64,000 bases of DNA from Escherichia phage vB_EcoS_FFH_1. The stretch's first letter is position 1; the number at the start of each line of letters is the position of its first letter. The notes under the pieces were generated by a model. That model searched no databases and had not been told where the DNA came from. It saw only the letters and a list, made by a program, of their open reading frames with translations. This document shows, piece after piece, positions 29,093 to 39,884 of the stretch. Location of the stretch: the sequence record KJ190157. One strand, 5' to 3'. The position numbers were made by a program, and so were the translations under genes.

Positions 29093-29168
29093 TGGAGCGG
29101 CTAGAGGGAATCGAACCCTACTCAGCGAGGCTTGGAAGGCCTGCGACACAACCCGTGTGCTTAACCGC
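29093..29168 (-). tRNA. tRNA-Gly(UCC)
   Basis: T-loop AATCGAA; anticodon loop TTGGAAG. Confidence 0.6.
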
Positions 29169-29176
29169 TTATTGTT

Positions 29177-29254
29177 TGGCAGGGGATATTGGATTTGAAC
29201 CAATGATCTCGACTTCAAAGGCCGAAGCTTTAGACCAGGCTAAGCTAATCCCCA
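29177..29254 (-). tRNA. tRNA-Gln(UUG)
   Basis: perfect T-arm ATTGG-ATTTGAA-CCAAT; loop TTCAAAG. Confidence 0.6.
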
Positions 29255-29260
29255 ACTGTT

Positions 29261-29336
29261 TGGCAGAAGGTAGTGGGTTCGAACCACTGATCGGGGTTTC
29301 AGAGACCCCAGCCTTAACCGACTTGGCTAACCTTCT
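29261..29336 (-). tRNA. tRNA-Gln(CUG)
   Basis: perfect T-arm and anticodon stem GGGGT/ACCCC; loop TTCAGAG. Confidence 0.7.
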
Positions 29337-29520
29337 TCTTAATACTTTTTGGATCTTCTAAACGTTTGCCTTCATGATCTACTCGAATAACTCCGCACCC
29401 TTCGCAAACCACAACTACACCATAACCTTCTTTGACCTCAGCTTCTGTAATCAAACCAGAAAGATCACCAGTATCTCTGCCCCACATATCAATGGAGCAT
29501 TGTTTGCAGAAATCAGCCAT
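29314..29520 (-). CDS. small zinc-ribbon-like protein
   Basis: 68 aa; CKQC...CEGC. Confidence 0.45.
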   Translation of the reverse strand: MADFCKQCSIDMWGRDTGDLSGLITEAEVKEGYGVVVVCEGCGVIRVDHEGKRLEDPKSIKKKVSQVG

Positions 29521-29545
29521 ATTTTATTTCCTATTTAAGTTAATT

Positions 29546-29622
29546 TGGGGTGGCTAGTGGAATTCGAATCCACATAGGCCTGATTCACAATCAGGATCAT
29601 TAACCAATTATGATATAGCCAC
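29546..29622 (-). tRNA. tRNA-His(GUG)
   Basis: perfect T-arm and anticodon stem CCTGA/TCAGG; loop TTCACAA. Confidence 0.7.
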
Positions 29623-29862
29623 AATTGAAAACTCGCAGGGTTAGCGAAACCTTCCTCAATTAGCATGTTCTAGAATACTAATCAAGTTATCTCCTATTGC
29701 ACGCAGCTCAAGACGAGTACGAATTTTCAATTGTGGTGGCTCTCAGAAACTCTTCTACTCTAGCCTTAGCAGCTTACTCCCGAACGCATGTCGGGGAAGT
29801 CTTACTAAGCGCATCAAATAGCACCGTTACACTTTGAGCCATTGATATATCAAGAAGTAGAA

Positions 29863-29993
29863 GGACTTGAACCTTCACGAGATAGACCATTTATCTCAGC
29901 CGCTTTATGAGGTATATTGCAGAGAGTGGATGTTCCCTATAAACCTTTTAGGCAGCCCCGTCTACCGATTCCGGCATACTTCAAGATTTGGAG
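29863..29993 (-). ncRNA. tRNA-like stable RNA candidate (~130 nt)
   Basis: perfect T-arm GAAGG-ACTTGAA-CCTTC at 29870-29886 and 6-bp acceptor pairing 29863-29869 with 29987-29993, but 100-nt interior with no canonical anticodon arm. Confidence 0.35.
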
Positions 29994-29998
29994 GTAGG

Positions 29999-30093
29999 TA
30001 AGGGGATCGAACCCTTACACCGTATCACTACGATCAACCGATTTCAAGTCGGAGTCCAGCGCCAGCCATTGGATTGACCTACCGTATAAATTG
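29999..30093 (-). tRNA. tRNA-Ser(UGA), class II
   Basis: 95 nt with long variable arm; T-arm AAGGG-GATCGAA-CCCTT; loop TTTCAAG. Confidence 0.6.
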
Positions 30094-30105
30094 TTTGGCG
30101 GAAGA

Positions 30106-30196
30106 GGAGAGATTTGAACTCTCAAGCCGTTTTACCAGTCAGCCACTTTCCAAGCGGTTTTCGTCGCCAATTCGATTTGCTCTTCCAATAATAAGA
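30106..30196 (-). tRNA. class II tRNA, probably Ser(GGA)
   Basis: 91 nt; perfect T-arm and 7-bp acceptor; anticodon arm only resolved with mismatches (loop TTTCCAA). Confidence 0.4.
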
Positions 30197-30233
30197 TGAT
30201 GCCTCTATCACACCAGGCAGTTACGCCTCGCTG

Positions 30234-30300
30234 GGATTCGAACCCATTAAAACAGCTCAACCGAGATAGTAGATTTAATTTACTCTGACCATCAAATTTG
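30234..30300 (-). ncRNA. tRNA-like fragment (T-arm only)
   Basis: T-loop GGGATTCGAACCC present but no acceptor partner or anticodon arm found. Confidence 0.25.
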
Positions 30301-30308
30301 GTGCGTGA

Positions 30309-30385
30309 CAAGGGATTCGAACCCTCAAAACCCGACTTCTAAGGACGGTATGTATGCCAATTCCATCAATCACGCGTATTTGGTG
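30309..30385 (-). tRNA. tRNA with UAG anticodon (Leu by anticodon), class I shape
   Basis: 77 nt, short variable region; loop TTCTAAG; discriminator A. Confidence 0.45.
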
Positions 30386-30390
30386 GAGGA

Positions 30391-30469
30391 TAACGAATTC
30401 GAATCGTTCTGATGTCCTCGGTGCAAGCGAGGTGTCCACCCCTAGCAGACCCATCCCCCAAATTCTTTA
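30391..30469 (-). tRNA. tRNA-Ala(UGC)
   Basis: perfect anticodon stem CCTCG/CGAGG, loop GTGCAAG; G3-U70 wobble in acceptor stem. Confidence 0.7.
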
Positions 30470-30571
30470 GTTTACTAAGGCTATTAGCTCGGCGTAACTA
30501 CAGCACCTTCGCTTCGAGCTAATACCTTAGTGAACTATGATGAGGATTTCTCCCCATCAATTTATATAAAT

Positions 30572-30600
30572 ATTATAACAAGAAATTAAGCATTAAGCAA
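30572..30600 (-). promoter_or_regulatory. T5-type promoter driving tRNA block 30469-29999
   Basis: TTGCTT, 17 bp, TATAAT; tRNAs immediately downstream. Confidence 0.7.
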
Positions 30601-30952
30601 GTACATTTTTGCAGATTTCTTGTAGTTCCTTTACATCACGAACGTAAAGGTAGTCTGAACTTCCAGAGTGCATACTTTGCATAAACACACCCTCATCTGG
30701 CGCAGTATCCTTCAAAGTAATTCCTAACCAAAAAGCGGCAAAACGAGGTGTTACCTCACCTTGACTTGCCTTGAATACATCGGCTTCTGTGATCTCCTGA
30801 CCAGTAGAAAGTCCCATATACGGTACGTTCAGATCGATATCTTTGTAGAATTCAGCTAGGTCTTGTTCGAAGTCCCAACCTTTAGAGATAGCGAACTCTA
30901 TTGTTACATGACCGAAATAACCTTGAATCTTGTTTGATAGTTGCATTTGCAA
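30593..30952 (-). CDS. hypothetical protein
   Basis: 119 aa. Confidence 0.5.
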   Translation of the reverse strand: MQMQLSNKIQGYFGHVTIEFAISKGWDFEQDLAEFYKDIDLNVPYMGLSTGQEITEADVFKASQGEVTPRFAAFWLGITLKDTAPDEGVFMQSMHSGSSDYLYVRDVKELQEICKNVLA

Positions 30953-30961
30953 TTCCTTATT

Positions 30962-31035
30962 TTGAGTTAATTGGTACTCGGTGATAGAATCGAACTATCA
31001 CAACCGCCGTGTAAAGACGGGGTTCTCCCATTAAA
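30962..31035 (-). tRNA. tRNA-Val(UAC)
   Basis: perfect T-arm GATAG-AATCGAA-CTATC; loop GTGTAAA. Confidence 0.6.
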
Positions 31036-31178
31036 CTAACCGAGCAAAAGATTTGCTACTAAAAATGCTTCGAACAGAAATTCACAAAATCCCGCTAAAA
31101 ACATACCTATTGTAAAATCGGCAGAAAATACATAGGAATCTTTTATTTTCTGCTTCATTAAGTAAAACCAGATAGTCA

Positions 31179-31496
31179 TTAAAATCTCTCCATTCTAAAG
31201 CCAATGAAGTAAGGTGCATTACACGGAACATGCTTAAGATCTTTAAGAGTAATTTTACGTCCTAAGCGTCGTTCCATACAAGTGAAACATAGAACAATAT
31301 CTTTGGGCTGCCCTTTTCTTATCTGATCCCAGACCCAATCTTCAACCATACACATTTCATGGTATTGTTCACAGTCTCGACAATAATGACACTGATGTTC
31401 TGGTACTTTTTGATTTTTAATACACAGTTCAGTAAAGCGTTTTCCGGCTCTGCCAGACATTTCTGATATTGTTTCTAGAACTTTGTTAATATTCAT
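31179..31496 (-). CDS. Cys-rich hypothetical protein
   Basis: 105 aa; HQCHYCRDCEQYHEMC...CFTCMERR. Confidence 0.5.
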   Translation of the reverse strand: MNINKVLETISEMSGRAGKRFTELCIKNQKVPEHQCHYCRDCEQYHEMCMVEDWVWDQIRKGQPKDIVLCFTCMERRLGRKITLKDLKHVPCNAPYFIGFRMERF

Positions 31497-31513
31497 AACA
31501 AATTCCTTTAAAT

Positions 31514-31592
31514 TGGTAGATCGCCTGGGACTCGAACCCAGAACCTTCCGATTAAAAGTCGGATGCTACTAAACCTATTGAGCTAGCGACCT
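31514..31592 (-). tRNA. tRNA-Lys(UUU)
   Basis: perfect T-arm and anticodon stem TCCGA/TCGGA; loop TTAAAAG. Confidence 0.7.
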
Positions 31593-31781
31593 ATTAGTAG
31601 CCATTATATACTTCTTTAATAGAATGGACTTTTAAGTAAGGATGATTAATCCCAAACTCCGCCATTACTTCTTTTTCATCTTTTCCATAATGTGCAAGTA
31701 AGGATCTTGAGGTATTATTACCTAAACGTTTGTCATTTACTACTAATCGAAATACTTTCATTTCGAAATCCTCTATTAAAA

Positions 31782-31859
31782 TGGAAGCGGGTGCAGGAAT
31801 CGAACCTACCTCTTTCTAGCTTATGAGACTAGCGATCTCTACCAGAGATCTAACCCGCA
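31782..31859 (-). tRNA. tRNA-Met(CAU) (or Ile2)
   Basis: loop TTATGAG; mismatch at acceptor pair 1-72. Confidence 0.55.
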
Positions 31860-31865
31860 ATTGTT

Positions 31866-31941
31866 TGGTCAGTGCGGCAGGACTCGAACCTGCGACCCGA
31901 AGCATCCAAGGCTCCCACGCTACCAACTGCGCTACGCACTG
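31866..31941 (-). tRNA. tRNA-Pro(UGG)
   Basis: perfect T-arm GCAGG-ACTCGAA-CCTGC and acceptor; loop ATCCAAG. Confidence 0.65.
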
Positions 31942-31950
31942 TTAATTCTT

Positions 31951-32148
31951 TTATTGTGGGGGGATATTAATAATTCGTCCATCTACACAATAAACGGTAC
32001 TAGGGATTGTACTGTATATGTAGAAATTCTTTATATTACTCTCTCCGCCACAGAAATTTTTAGCAAATTCATACTCTTTATTAATGGTTGAGTCAAGTTT
32101 AAAACAACCAGTAAGTAGGAATACAGATAGCAATAAAACTTTCTTCAT
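31951..32148 (-). CDS. small lipoprotein
   Basis: 65 aa; lipobox LLTGC; promoter at 32181-32209. Confidence 0.5.
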   Translation of the reverse strand: MKKVLLLSVFLLTGCFKLDSTINKEYEFAKNFCGGESNIKNFYIYSTIPSTVYCVDGRIINIPPQ

Positions 32149-32180
32149 TTTGCTTTCCTTCTCTTCACTTTATAAAATAT

Positions 32181-32209
32181 ATTATACAGAGAATTAAGTA
32201 AAATAGCAA
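32181..32209 (-). promoter_or_regulatory. T5-type early sigma70 promoter
   Basis: TTGCTA, 17 bp, TATAAT. Confidence 0.7.
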
Positions 32210-32358
32210 ATGAATTTTTAATAAATTTACTTATTGTGTAGGCCACCTGGAGGCTATGAACCCCACGGCTGACAAAGAAGTTTGCGAGACTTCTCTTAAA
32301 AGCCAGAATAGACCCGCCGATCTATCGGAACCTACATAATAAGTAAACTTTATAGTGT

Positions 32359-32479
32359 CATTCTAGACAGGACTCGAACCTGTTATCACTTGTGCGGACT
32401 TACGAGAACCATTCTTTCACTCGAATCGAACGAGCTTCTGCCCTAGCCAAGCTGGTTTCCCCATCAACCACGCTAGAAT
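32359..32479 (-). ncRNA. tRNA-like stable RNA candidate (~120 nt)
   Basis: perfect T-arm ACAGG-ACTCGAA-CCTGT at 32367-32383 and perfect 7-bp acceptor pairing 32360-32366 with 32473-32479; long interior. Confidence 0.35.
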
Positions 32480-32601
32480 GTTTGATTGTTTTCAGTGCAA
32501 GAGTCCGAGTCTTGGACACGACCGCTTCGCAAGTACATAGGCAGCTTATCATGAGTCAGCACTTCCGAATTGCTAGCCCCGTGTTCTGCACTGAAATTTT
32601 A

Positions 32602-32949
32602 TTAGTTTAACCGTAAAGTATTATCTACTTCACCATTAATTGTTCGGCATTCCTCTGGGATTGCCGGTGTAGCCTTGTATTCCCACCACTCAGCACCATC
32701 ATATTCCCCACGTTCTAGCCAAGTTCCATCGGCAAACCATACATTACCATAAAGTAATTGTCCACCGTATCCAGAATCATATTCAAAGTCTAGGTTATTA
32801 AGAAACCCCTCAATGTCTTCTTCTGTATAATCTAAAGGTAATACCCAGACTTTTTTGTCCCCATAATACCCAAATTCTATTTTAATACACTTAACTTTAG
32901 AATTGGTATTTTTTAAGGCGAGTAACAGCTCTTCTTTAGCATTACGCAT
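32602..32949 (-). CDS. hypothetical protein
   Basis: 115 aa. Confidence 0.5.
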   Translation of the reverse strand: MRNAKEELLLALKNTNSKVKCIKIEFGYYGDKKVWVLPLDYTEEDIEGFLNNLDFEYDSGYGGQLLYGNVWFADGTWLERGEYDGAEWWEYKATPAIPEECRTINGEVDNTLRLN

Positions 32950-33246: not shown

Positions 33247-33348
33247 GCTTGTTTCCTCAGTTATTAATGAAAATGGTATCTGTGGCTGAATTCGATGTCA
33301 GCAATGATAGCTGGTTGGCTACCGGTTTACTTAACTCTACACAGAATT

Positions 33349-35062: not shown

Positions 35063-35238
35063 GATGTTTCTCCAGCTTCATTTTTAATAGTTTACAAATG
35101 AAATCAACGTCTTCATCTGTACCTAGATCTCTATCTTCAAGAGTTGCCTTGAAGTTTTTAGTCAATTCCATGAGGATAACTTCTCTAGAACGACGTGTTG
35201 GCGGAGGTGGATGTCTATACATCTTATTTCCTTAGTTT

Positions 35239-35315
35239 GGTAGGGGTGGTGGGATTCGAACCCACAAAACCTGAATTTTAAGTCCAGTACCTATGCCAAT
35301 TCGATTACACCCCCG
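35239..35315 (-). tRNA. tRNA with UAA anticodon (Leu by anticodon), class I shape
   Basis: 77 nt; perfect T-arm GTGGG-ATTCGAA-CCCAC; loop TTTTAAG; discriminator A. Confidence 0.5.
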
Positions 35316-35529: not shown

Positions 35530-35607
35530 TGGTGGCTCCCCGAGGATTCGAACCTACGTACCTTCCGGTTATGAGCCGGGTGCTCATACCATATGAGCTT
35601 GAGAACC
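35530..35607 (-). tRNA. tRNA-Met(CAU), possibly initiator
   Basis: loop TTATGAG; three consecutive G-C pairs at base of anticodon stem; weak T-stem. Confidence 0.5.
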
Positions 35608-39812: not shown

Positions 39813-39884
39813 TACCGACCGTAGGATTCGAACCTACATCTTCCACCAGTTACGGCTTGATAATACCAATTATACTAGGACGGC
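39813..39884 (-). ncRNA. tRNA-like element, identity unresolved
   Basis: perfect T-arm GTAGG-ATTCGAA-CCTAC and partial acceptor pairing, no convincing anticodon arm. Confidence 0.3.

What the first reader, a model, noticed from the sequence alone, without database searches (positions are those of the whole stretch)
29630..29993. Long tRNA-like RNA candidates embedded in the tRNA cluster
At 29863-29993 and 32359-32479 a perfect T-arm and a 6-7 bp acceptor-stem pairing are present, but the paired ends are 120-130 nt apart and no canonical anticodon arm fits. This is the architecture expected for RNase P/tRNase-processed stable RNAs that co-reside with phage tRNAs. A further T-arm-only fragment lies at 30234-30300, and a 9-bp inverted repeat (TTCAGTGCA at 32491-32499, TGCACTGAA at 32586-32594) closes a roughly 100-nt structured segment at 32491-32594.
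Basis: seen in the sequence. Interest (0 to 1): 0.55.

Follow-up and report, generated by a model that had tools for sequence, protein, structure and literature searches.

The report
Known T5 tRNA-like stable RNAs
These are the tRNA-shaped but non-decoding small RNAs (RNA1, RNA2 and neighbours) that phage T5 and its relatives are already recorded as encoding in their tRNA gene cluster; their folds are real and conserved, but their function is still unknown.

Summary
The window is a T5-like phage (Tequintavirus). Its tRNA cluster lies on the minus strand. They are the homologues of features already annotated in the T5 and BF23 GenBank records: rna1 (window 29841-29985) and rna2 (32356-32480), both 'tRNA-like stable RNA with unknown functions'. 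The rest of the flagged interval holds RNAI (29734-29840) and RNAIII (29624-29729), also annotated stable RNAs.

Comparative analysis strongly supports both folds. RNA1: 25 distinct sequences, 95.8% of cells paired, 13 pairs changed on both sides. RNA2: 14 sequences, 98.4% paired, 18 of 27 pairs. No shuffle out of 500 matched either.

RNA1 is a class II tRNA-Leu body and RNA2 a tRNA-Arg-like body. In each, a 40-48 nt structured domain sits directly after the 5' strand of the anticodon stem, so neither can decode. Loop sequences are invariant while stems covary.

The 'T-arm-only fragment' (30188-30298) and the 9-bp-stem segment (32488-32597) are further structured RNAs. Neither is annotated in the T5 or BF23 records I read (the first is absent from T5).

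Function is unknown, and RNA1 is dispensable in the laboratory. Verdict: observation confirmed, interpretation supported, already known.

The parts
29853..29983 (-). RNA1 tRNA-like core. Its parts are: acceptor strands 29982-29977 and 29859-29854; D arm 29974-29958; anticodon-stem strands 29956-29952 and 29903-29899; extension 29951-29904; variable arm 29897-29879; T arm 29876-29860.
   Evidence: 85.5% identical to T5 rna1. Cloverleaf by MFE fold. Covariation in 25 distinct sequences: 95.8% paired, 13 double-change pairs, 0/500 shuffles.
29926..29933 (-). Apical loop ACAUCCAC of the RNA1 extension. Seven of its 8 positions are invariant, on a 5-bp stem that covaries.
   Evidence: The stem pairs take the types UA/AU/GC and AU/GC/CG, while the loop is fixed.
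29885..29891 (-). Variable-arm loop AAUGGUC of RNA1, invariant at 7 of 7 positions. The motif AAUGGU recurs in the RNA2 insertion.
29841..29852 (-). RNA1 3' trailer (UGAUAUAUCAAU) up to the first base of RNAI. No CCA is encoded. The T5 annotation counts this stretch as part of the 144-nt rna1.
29734..29840 (-). RNAI: a 107-nt stable RNA with a GGCUC/GAGCC terminal stem followed by an encoded RCCA 3' end.
   Evidence: 91.6% identical to T5 rnaI. z -2.5. 8 covarying pairs, with the RCCA end kept in nearly all lineages.
29624..29729 (-). RNAIII: a 106-nt stable RNA closed by an 11-12 bp terminal stem. Its 3' end abuts the 5' end of tRNA-His.
   Evidence: 99% identical to T5 rnaIII. z -2.9. 95-100% conserved, so covariation is uninformative.
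32356..32480 (-). RNA2 tRNA-like RNA. Its parts are: acceptor 32480-32473 and 32366-32359; D arm 32470-32453; anticodon-stem strands 32452-32448 and 32392-32388; 48-nt insertion 32447-32400; invariant remnant GUCCGCA 32399-32393; T arm 32383-32367.
   Evidence: 96% identical to T5 rna2. Cloverleaf fold. 98.4% paired, 18 of 27 pairs changed on both sides, 0/500 shuffles.
32419..32435 (-). Second, internal T-arm-like hairpin inside the RNA2 insertion (GCUCG-UUCGAUU-CGAGU).
   Evidence: Present in all 10 lineage variants examined. The stem switches to UACGG/CCGUA (4 of 5 pairs changed on both sides) while the loop stays UUCRAUU, with one UUCGACU variant.
32235..32337 (-). RNAIV: a 103-nt stable RNA with a four-way-junction fold, immediately downstream of RNA2.
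   Evidence: 98% identical to T5 rnaIV. z -3.0. Consensus fold with 3 covarying pairs.
32488..32597 (-). It has no annotation in the T5 or BF23 records.
   Evidence: z -2.15. 97-100% conserved and found only in the close T5 relatives among the fetched loci. It lies between the T5.067 homologue and rna2. No U-run follows the stem, so it is not an intrinsic terminator.
30188..30298 (-). Its T-arm-like hairpin is at 30246-30232.
   Evidence: Homologues occur in Pectobacterium phage DU_PP_V and Erwinia phage KEY. The hairpin shows compensatory changes (UGGG/CCCA, CGGG/CCCG, CAGG/CCUG), and 5 pairs covary. It is absent from T5, where the hegC HNH gene occupies the spot.

Best explanation
The two long candidates are the T5-family RNA1 and RNA2. 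They are non-decoding RNAs derived from tRNAs and encoded inside the phage's early tRNA transcription units.

Shown here:
- They are homologous and syntenic to the annotated T5 and BF23 stable RNAs.
- Each folds as a full cloverleaf whose stems covary.
- RNA1 is built on a class II tRNA-Leu body, with a Leu-type D arm and a long variable arm. RNA2 is built on a tRNA-Arg-like body.
- In both, the 7-nt anticodon loop is displaced by a 40-48 nt structured domain inserted directly after the 5' strand of the anticodon stem (tRNA positions 31/32).
- The loops of these domains are invariant while their stems covary, so the insertion belongs to the selected, mature RNA.

Inferred:
- The acceptor stem, T arm and D/T elbow are intact. 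The host tRNA machinery (RNase P at the 5' end, exonucleases or RNase BN at the 3' end, with RNase P cleavage at the next RNA defining trailers) therefore probably excises them from the polycistronic transcript and leaves them as stable species.
- With an extended anticodon arm they cannot enter the ribosomal decoding site. They probably act as tRNA-shaped scaffolds that present fixed loops (ACAUCCAC and AAUGGUC in RNA1; an extra T loop, AAUGGU and UCCGCA in RNA2) to a partner that normally handles tRNA. A decoy or sponge for a host tRNA-binding factor is the most likely role.
- That role is accessory, because T5 lacking RNA1, RNAI and RNAIII grows in laboratory E. coli.
For: Identity: BLAST of the T5 features onto the window gives rna1 85.5%, rna2 96%, rnaI 91.6%, rnaIII 99% and rnaIV 98% identity, in the same order. 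The T5 and BF23 records call them (tRNA-like) stable RNAs.

Fold: RNA1 covariation is, and RNA2.

Ancestry: the best non-self hits of the RNA1 covariance model are class II tRNA-Leu(UAG) genes at 31-38 bits. Deleting 40 nt from T5-type RNA1 gives ARAGORN tRNA-Leu(taa). The two top non-self hits of the RNA2 model, and 3 of the top 9, are tRNA-Arg. Deleting 48 nt gives tRNA-Arg(ccg) in both the window and the Erwinia KEY versions.

Selection on the insert: the apical loop is invariant at 7 of 8 positions and the V loop at 7 of 7, while the apical and acceptor stems vary with compensation. The internal T-arm hairpin of RNA2 is kept through 4 double changes.

Breadth: RNA1 occurs in 491 phage records and RNA2 in 464. 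These include Klebsiella, Enterobacter and Pectobacterium phages for both RNAs, and also Erwinia phage KEY for RNA2.

Not coding: only ORFs under 50 aa lie inside RNA1 or the RNA2 minus strand. A 72-aa plus-strand GTG ORF (32392-32610) overlaps RNA2 and was not examined further.

Dispensability: T5 deletion 29191-32442 is viable (PMC11464382).
Against: - No expression or end-mapping data were available here. Stability and processing rest on the depositors' annotation and on inference from structure.
- No binding partner or target was found. The invariant loops have no complement in this window above chance and none in E. coli rRNA above shuffles.
- RNA1 encodes no CCA and has a U1-U72 mismatch, so its 3' maturation is uncertain.
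- RNA2 encodes NCCA in three lineages, which hints at a role closer to that of a real tRNA.
- Of the three T5-123 deletion fragments tested, the paper reports partial rescue of PARIS only for the one carrying tRNA-Pro, fMet, Lys and Val. That gives no support for RNA1 acting against that particular defence.
Confidence: 0.8

Rival explanations
1. They are interrupted but functional tRNA genes. RNA1 would be tRNA-Leu(UAA) and RNA2 tRNA-Arg(CCG), each carrying a short intron at position 31/32 that is removed to give a decoding tRNA.
For:
- In silico removal of the inserts gives clean tRNA-Leu(taa) and tRNA-Arg(ccg) cloverleaves.
- T5-type RNA1 keeps CUUAAAA next to the 3' strand of the stem.
- RNA2 keeps an invariant N-UCCGCA there and encodes NCCA in the Klebsiella, Enterobacter and Erwinia phages.
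- T5 has no other tRNA-Leu(UAA) or tRNA-Arg(CCG).
- Both inserts sit at the same site.
Against: - The inserts are 40-48 nt, far below group I intron size, and Rfam finds no intron or ribozyme there.
- To my knowledge, no splicing route for such inserts is known in E. coli or T5.
- The anticodon-loop remnant of RNA1 has decayed in most lineages: UCAUAAA in this window, CGAAAAC in Epseptimavirus and UCGACGG in the Pectobacterium phage.
- The remnant of RNA2 has C at position 37 and is predicted to pair with GGG.
- The inserts carry their own covarying stems and invariant loops.
- The annotated sizes of 144 and 125 nt are the unspliced sizes.
Confidence: 0.07
2. They are decaying tRNA pseudogenes with no function of their own. 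They persist as harmless by-products, or only as RNase P 'punctuation' that separates neighbouring tRNAs and small mRNAs.
For: They are dispensable in the laboratory. The T5 tRNA region is mosaic, with frequent HNH-endonuclease insertions and module swaps: the T5 hegC, tRNA-Ser2, tRNA-Leu1 and tRNA-Ala queries gave no BLAST match in the window. RNA1 has lost its anticodon loop and its CCA.
Against: A pseudogene would not keep 7 of 8 and 7 of 7 invariant loop positions, nor compensatory changes inside the inserted domain, across phages of Escherichia, Salmonella, Klebsiella, Enterobacter and Pectobacterium. RNA2 is also kept in Erwinia phage KEY. Punctuation would need only the acceptor and T-arm module.
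Confidence: 0.11
3. The conservation reflects something other than a free RNA: small protein-coding genes, as annotated in several public records, or cis-acting transcription signals.
For: Several GenBank records place 'hypothetical protein' CDS over RNA1 or RNA2. The terminator scan flags the RNA1 T arm.
Against: Most chance ORFs in these regions are 25-50 aa, mostly with TTG or GTG starts; one 72-aa plus-strand GTG ORF (32392-32610) overlaps RNA2. The substitution pattern is paired-stem compensation, not codon-like. The 'terminator' is simply the T arm followed by the acceptor strand. The curated T5 and BF23 records call them RNAs.
Confidence: 0.02

Closest known systems
Phage T5 / BF23 RNA1 and RNA2 (misc_RNA rna1 and rna2 in AY543070, AY692264 and AJ604530), with RNAI, RNAIII and RNAIV
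   Same: Same loci, same order and same strand, at 85.5-99% identity. The depositors describe them as tRNA-like or stable RNAs with unknown functions.
   Different: Nothing essential. The window's RNA1 belongs to a sequence type that differs from T5 by compensatory changes in the acceptor, anticodon and apical stems, and it has lost the CUUAAAA remnant.
Phage T4 RNAC (species 1) and RNAD (species 2)
   Same: They are small stable RNAs encoded at the end of the T4 tRNA cluster with unknown biological roles (PMC3014915; PMC9697503). RNAC also carries a canonical T arm near its 3' end.
   Different: There is no detectable homology. The RNA1 covariance model has no match in the T4 tRNA region, and the RNA2 model matches only over T4's tRNA-Ser and tRNA-Leu/Gln genes. 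The architectures differ.
Class II tRNA-Leu and tRNA-Arg (Rfam RF00005)
   Same: They share the acceptor, D arm, T arm and elbow nucleotides: U8, A14, G18 and G19 for RNA1, and the T loop UUCRAGU in most sequences. RNA1 also has a long variable arm. tRNA-Leu and tRNA-Arg genes are the best non-self hits of the two models.
   Different: There is no 7-nt anticodon loop; a structured domain of 47 nt (RNA1) or 55 nt (RNA2) sits between the anticodon-stem strands. Both score below Rfam tRNA detection even at E = 10. No CCA is encoded in the window copies.
Other tRNA mimics: the tmRNA tRNA-like domain, bacterial Y-RNA-like YrlA, and viral 3' tRNA-like structures
   Same: The concept is the same: a tRNA-shaped module reused for a non-decoding purpose (my own knowledge of these families).
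   Different: ARAGORN finds no tmRNA. Rfam gives no hit to any such family at E up to 10. Here the RNA ends form the acceptor stem as in a true tRNA. It is not circularly permuted as YrlA is, and it has no mRNA-like domain.

Membership tests
T5/BF23 RNA1 (rna1) | Sequence homology to the annotated rna1 | tested here: met
   85.5% identity over 145 nt to AY543070 rna1. The RNA1 model scores 131-165 bits for all lineage copies.
T5/BF23 RNA1 (rna1) | Synteny: tRNA-Ser(UGA), then RNA1, RNAI, RNAIII and tRNA-His on one strand | tested here: met
T5/BF23 RNA1 and RNA2 | Accumulates as a discrete stable RNA in infected cells | not testable with these tools
   Only the depositors' note 'stable RNA' is available. 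No RNA-seq data could be reached.
T5/BF23 RNA2 (rna2) | Sequence homology and position upstream of RNAIV and promoter P13a | tested here: met
   96% identity over 125 nt. RNAIV is 98% identical and P13a 90.7% identical, immediately downstream.
Canonical tRNA (Rfam RF00005) | Cloverleaf with acceptor, D and T arms and conserved elbow nucleotides | tested here: met
Canonical tRNA (Rfam RF00005) | A 5-bp anticodon stem closed by a 7-nt loop with U33 and an anticodon | tested here: not met
   48 nt (RNA1) and 55 nt (RNA2) lie between the two strands of the anticodon stem.
Canonical tRNA (Rfam RF00005) | Score at or above the family gathering threshold (29 bits) | tested here: not met
   No RF00005 match over 29853-29983 or 32356-32480, even at E up to 10. 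Default ARAGORN is silent.
Canonical tRNA (Rfam RF00005) | 3'-terminal CCA | tested here: inconclusive
   It is not encoded in the window: RNA1 ends ...CUUCU-UGAU and RNA2 ends ...GAAUG-ACA. RNA2 encodes GCCA, ACCA or UCCA in the Enterobacter, Erwinia and Klebsiella phages. Post-transcriptional addition cannot be tested.
Intron-containing tRNA (group I or bulge-helix-bulge type) | A recognisable intron core | tested here: not met
   The inserts are 40-48 nt, and no intron or ribozyme family was matched in Rfam. The bulge-helix-bulge motif was not specifically modelled.
Intron-containing tRNA (group I or bulge-helix-bulge type) | A functional anticodon loop conserved across homologues once the insert is removed | tested here: inconclusive
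   Not met for RNA1, where CUUAAAA survives only in the T5/BF23/Enterobacter type. For RNA2, N-UCCGCA is invariant but has C37 and is predicted to be paired.
T4 RNAC/RNAD | Sequence or structure homology | tested here: not met
   In the T4 tRNA-cluster locus the RNA1 model has no match, and the RNA2 model matches only over T4's tRNA-Ser and tRNA-Leu/Gln genes.
tmRNA / Y-RNA-like tRNA mimics | Match to the family model | tested here: not met
   ARAGORN finds no tmRNA. Rfam gives no hit at E up to 10.

The most novel reading that the evidence does not exclude
RNA1 and RNA2 are active tRNA-scaffold decoys or adapters. Each keeps the parts of a tRNA that host enzymes recognise, and replaces the anticodon loop with a domain whose invariant loops capture a tRNA-directed host factor. 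That factor could be a tRNA-cleaving or tRNA-modifying defence enzyme, a synthetase or a processing enzyme. If so, they would extend the T5 tRNA cluster's known anti-defence role from replacement tRNAs to RNA inhibitors.

A less likely variant is that the shared insertion point (31/32) marks a new kind of short tRNA insert that is removed or remodelled under some conditions.
Probability: 0.2. Interest if true: 0.75.

Novelty: already known. Interest (0 to 1): 0.3.

Why it matters
These RNAs have carried the label 'unknown functions' in the T5 and BF23 records for decades, as have T4 RNAC and RNAD. That label now sits beside recent evidence that T5's real tRNAs defeat tRNA-cleaving immune systems: PARIS, and the Eco7 retron toxin PtuAB (PMC11464382).

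This analysis adds several things:
- folds backed by covariation;
- a tRNA-Leu ancestry for RNA1 and a tRNA-Arg-like ancestry for RNA2;
- a shared insertion site;
- a short list of invariant loops to mutate.

It also exposes an annotation problem. The loci occur in about 460-490 public phage genomes. There they are mostly unannotated, or covered by hypothetical CDS, or mis-called as tRNA-Phe, tRNA-Leu or tRNA-Arg. No Rfam family matches them.

Tried and rejected
- **Rfam scans.** Gathering threshold and E up to 10 gave only canonical tRNAs and weak tRNA-Sec-model hits on the class II tRNA-Ser genes. Nothing matched RNA1, RNA2, RNAI, RNAIII or RNAIV.
- **Targets for the RNA1 apical loop in the window.** The only exact complement is the locus itself, and near matches are at chance level.
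- **Shared AAAUGGU motif elsewhere in the window.** Occurrences are at chance level.
- **Loop complementarity to E. coli 16S, 23S and 5S rRNA.** Duplex energies are no better than shuffled probes.
- **Bacterial or archaeal copies of RNA1.** None in 185,579 species genomes.
- **More distant homologues.** The RNA1 model found nothing in 35 metagenomic phage loci that encode a relative of the neighbouring small protein, nor in the 16-kb Erwinia KEY locus, nor in T4. IMG/VR and the metagenome scan added only the same lineages.
- **Homology to T4 RNAC/RNAD.** Rejected.
- **Literature.** The full-text library holds nothing on the function of the T5 stable RNAs.
- **Anticorrelation test.** I asked whether keeping CUUAAAA in RNA1 goes with lacking a separate tRNA-Leu(UAA). 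This fails, because Enterobacter phage KKP_3711 has both.
- **Inner helices of the RNA2 insertion beyond the T-arm hairpin.** They could not be settled. MAFFT puts the lineages one base out of register, and the alternative pairings are not consistently supported.

Full report
**What the window is.** A 1.1-kb query around the finding matches 470 phage records, the best at 97.8% identity. All are T5-like phages of Escherichia, Salmonella, Klebsiella and related hosts. ARAGORN and Rfam find 22-23 tRNA genes, all on the minus strand, between 27984 and 39884. Relaxed ARAGORN adds tRNA-Gly(UCC), two class II tRNA-Ser genes and a second tRNA(CAU). So the finding has to be read on the minus strand.

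**The observation.** On that strand, 29983-29853 has these parts:
- a 6-bp acceptor pairing (GAAGUA/UACUUC);
- a D arm;
- a 5-bp anticodon stem whose two strands are 48 nt apart;
- a 6-bp variable arm;
- a perfect T arm.

The interval 32480-32356 has an 8-bp acceptor, a 5-bp D stem, an anticodon stem whose strands are 55 nt apart, and a perfect T arm.

Neither is called by default ARAGORN, by Rfam at gathering score, or by Rfam at E up to 10. ARAGORN calls RNA1 only when introns are allowed, as 'tRNA-Phe(aaa)' with a 41-nt insert.

**These loci are already annotated in T5 and BF23.** The curated T5 record AY543070 lists the following, in this order on this strand:
- tRNA-Ser1;
- a small ORF;
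- rna1 (144 nt, 'tRNA-like stable RNA with unknown functions');
- rnaI (107 nt);
- rnaIII (106 nt);
- tRNA-His.

Further upstream it lists rna2 (125 nt, tRNA-like), then rnaIV (103 nt), then promoter P13a. It also lists rna2H, rna3 and rnaX. The BF23 tRNA-region record says the same.

BLAST of each T5 feature onto the window gives these positions:

| T5 feature | Window position | Identity |
|---|---|---|
| rnaIII | 29624-29729 | 99% |
| rnaI | 29734-29840 | 91.6% |
| rna1 | 29841-29985 | 85.5% |
| rnaIV | 32235-32337 | 98% |
| rna2 | 32356-32480 | 96% |
| rna3 | 33274-33346 | 100% |

The flagged interval 29630-29993 thus holds three consecutive RNAs: RNA1, RNAI and RNAIII. The second candidate is RNA2.

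**The RNA1 fold.** I collected RNA1 from IMG/VR, GenBank phages and metagenomes. Twenty-five distinct sequences were aligned. They come from Tequintavirus, Epseptimavirus, Klebsiella, Enterobacter, Citrobacter and Pectobacterium phages.

On the cloverleaf with an extended anticodon arm:
- 95.8% of cells form standard pairs;
- 13 pairs show changes on both sides;
- the covariation score is 0.252 against 0.107 for shuffles (0/500 as high);
- sliding the partners by 1-3 columns drops pairing to 42-51%.

Covariation occurs in the acceptor stem, the anticodon stem, the base helix of the extension, its apical helix and the variable arm. A 3-bp stretch of the MFE fold (UAU/AUA) is not supported. It is paired in only some lineages, with 14 of 25 sequences unpaired at two of its positions.

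Conservation runs opposite to what a decaying sequence would show:
- the apical loop ACAUCCAC is invariant at 7 of 8 positions;
- the variable-arm loop AAUGGUC is invariant at 7 of 7;
- the D and T arms are almost invariant;
- the stems vary.

**RNA1 ancestry.** Positions 8-26 (UGCCGGAAUCGGUAGACGG) are close to T5's own class II tRNA-Leu. From memory, they are also close to E. coli tRNA-Leu. The covariance model of RNA1 scores its true homologues at 131-165 bits. Next come class II tRNA-Leu(UAG) genes at 31-38 bits, ahead of other tRNA types apart from one tRNA-Ser(GCU) gene at 34.5 bits.

In the T5, BF23 and Enterobacter type, the 7 nt before the 3' strand of the anticodon stem read CUUAAAA. 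Deleting the preceding 40 nt gives a sequence that ARAGORN calls tRNA-Leu(taa). In this window and in the other lineages the remnant has decayed. Decoding is therefore not what is being kept. RNA1 encodes no CCA and has a conserved U-U at positions 1-72.

**The RNA2 fold and ancestry.** Homologues occur in 464 phage records. These include Klebsiella, Enterobacter, Pectobacterium DU_PP_V and Erwinia KEY.

On 14 distinct sequences:
- 98.4% of cells pair;
- 18 of 27 pairs change on both sides (0/500 shuffles as high; slid controls 31-46% paired);
- all eight acceptor pairs covary.

The insertion contains a second T-arm-like hairpin. It is present in every lineage, with loop UUCRAUU (one UUCGACU variant) and a stem that switches from GCUCG/CGAGU to UACGG/CCGUA. 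The insertion also contains the motif AAUGGU, which is shared with the RNA1 variable loop, and an invariant UCCGCA next to the 3' strand of the anticodon stem.

Deleting 48 nt gives ARAGORN tRNA-Arg(ccg) for both the window and the Erwinia KEY copies. The two best non-self hits of the RNA2 model, and three of the top nine, are tRNA-Arg genes.

The 3' end is GCCA, ACCA or UCCA in the Enterobacter, Erwinia and Klebsiella phages. It is GACA in T5-like phages, including this window.

**Both insertions sit at the same place.** In both RNAs the extra domain lies directly after the 5' strand of the anticodon stem. I have no explanation for this coincidence.

**The other items.**
- *RNAI.* It has a GGCUC/GAGCC terminal stem followed by RCCA in nearly all lineages, and 8 covarying pairs. 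Its central domain is replaced in some lineages.
- *RNAIII.* It is closed by an 11-12 bp stem that ends two bases before tRNA-His. It is too conserved for covariation to be informative.
- *RNAIV.* It folds as a four-way junction.
- *The 'T-arm-only fragment'.* It is a conserved element of about 110 nt (30188-30298). Homologues in Pectobacterium and Erwinia phages show compensatory changes in the T-arm-like hairpin. It is absent from T5, where the HNH gene hegC lies, and it is unannotated in BF23.
- *The 9-bp inverted repeat.* It closes a 110-nt fold (z -2.15) between the T5.067 homologue and RNA2. It is conserved only among the close T5 relatives and is annotated in neither the T5 nor the BF23 record. 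No U-run follows it.

**How it most likely works.**

*Shown:* homology to the annotated stable RNAs; folds under selection; tRNA ancestry; loss of a decodable anticodon loop; invariant loops.

*Inferred from general knowledge of tRNA maturation:* the intact acceptor, T arm and elbow make both RNAs substrates for RNase P and the 3' trimming enzymes. These would excise them from the early polycistronic tRNA transcripts. The tRNA-like tertiary fold would make them stable.

*Inferred further, with low confidence:* they act as tRNA-shaped scaffolds that present fixed loops to a partner that handles tRNA.

The role is accessory. T5 mutant 123 lacks 29191-32442, which removes RNA1, RNAI, RNAIII and RNA2H, and it is viable. 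The paper reports that only the tRNA-Pro/fMet/Lys/Val fragment of that deletion partially restored growth on PARIS (PMC11464382).

**Rivals.**
- *Spliced tRNAs.* This is attractive because of the clean in-silico tRNAs and the CCA ends of some RNA2 copies. It lacks a mechanism, is contradicted by the decay of the RNA1 remnant, and does not explain selection on the inserts.
- *Pseudogenes or RNase P punctuation.* This does not explain the invariant loops or the compensated stems inside the inserts.
- *Coding or cis-regulatory readings.* Most chance ORFs here are under 50 aa. One 72-aa plus-strand ORF overlaps RNA2 and was not examined further. The substitution pattern is that of paired stems.

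**Comparison with known systems.** The loci are members of the T5/BF23 RNA1 and RNA2 families. The nearest analogues are T4 RNAC and RNAD. These are also encoded in a phage tRNA cluster and also have unknown roles, but they are not homologous. The T5 RNAs are not tRNAs by Rfam or ARAGORN criteria. They are also not tmRNA or Y-RNA-like mimics.

**Verdict.** The finding is a rediscovery of known stable RNAs whose function has never been worked out. Novelty is low. The remaining interest lies in the unknown function, the shared insertion site, and two structured elements that neither the T5 nor the BF23 record annotates.

Noticed in passing
window 30188-30298 (-); L086 10803-10908; L094 5378-5483: This is a conserved structured RNA of about 110 nt containing a T-arm-like hairpin. 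It is unannotated in BF23 and absent from T5, where hegC sits. It is conserved with compensatory changes in Pectobacterium DU_PP_V and Erwinia KEY; in KEY it lies under the annotated CDS key_099.
   Followed up: partly
window 32488-32597 (-): This is a 110-nt structured segment closed by a 9-10 bp stem, immediately upstream of RNA2. It is 97-100% conserved in the close T5 relatives only and is not annotated in the T5 or BF23 records. It may be a released 5' leader or a further stable RNA.
   Followed up: partly
window 30460-30545 (-): A long, nearly perfect hairpin (z -4.5) lies between promoter P13b and tRNA-Ala. It occupies the place of T5 rna2H, but only the last 41 nt are shared with it.
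   Followed up: no
window 30299-30375 (-) and 35238-35314 (-): The tRNAs with anticodons UAG and UAA are only 77 nt long and have no long variable arm. Bacterial tRNA-Leu is class II, and T5's own tRNA-Leu1 is 85 nt. Which amino acid these tRNAs accept is an open question.
   Followed up: no
window 29093-29168, 29989-30083, 30096-30186, 35530-35607 (-); 39813-39884 (-): Default ARAGORN misses tRNA-Gly(UCC), tRNA-Ser(UGA), tRNA-Ser(GGA) and a tRNA(CAU). All four appear with relaxed settings and match T5 annotations. Rfam calls one more tRNA at 39813-39884.
   Followed up: partly
window 33274-33346 (-): RNA3 is 100% identical to T5 rna3. It is a 73-nt tRNA-like RNA ending in ACCA. It has a 6-bp 'anticodon' stem with a 6-nt loop, an 8-nt T-like loop and no D stem.
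   Followed up: no
window 29990-30520 compared with L002 (T5): The module carrying tRNA-Ser(GGA), tRNA(UAG) and tRNA-Ala has no BLAST match to the T5 versions of these genes. tRNA-Ser(UGA) matches only partly (43 nt at 84%). The HNH endonuclease genes hegC and hegD of T5 are absent, so the tRNA cluster is mosaic.
   Followed up: no
public records: OK272477 (JLBYU43), OK272480 (JLBYU40), PP579741 (KKP_3711, L091 251-320): Automatic annotation calls RNA1 'tRNA-Phe' or 'tRNA-Leu', and calls the 5' part of RNA2 'tRNA-Arg(ccg)'. Many other records place hypothetical CDS over these RNAs.
   Followed up: partly
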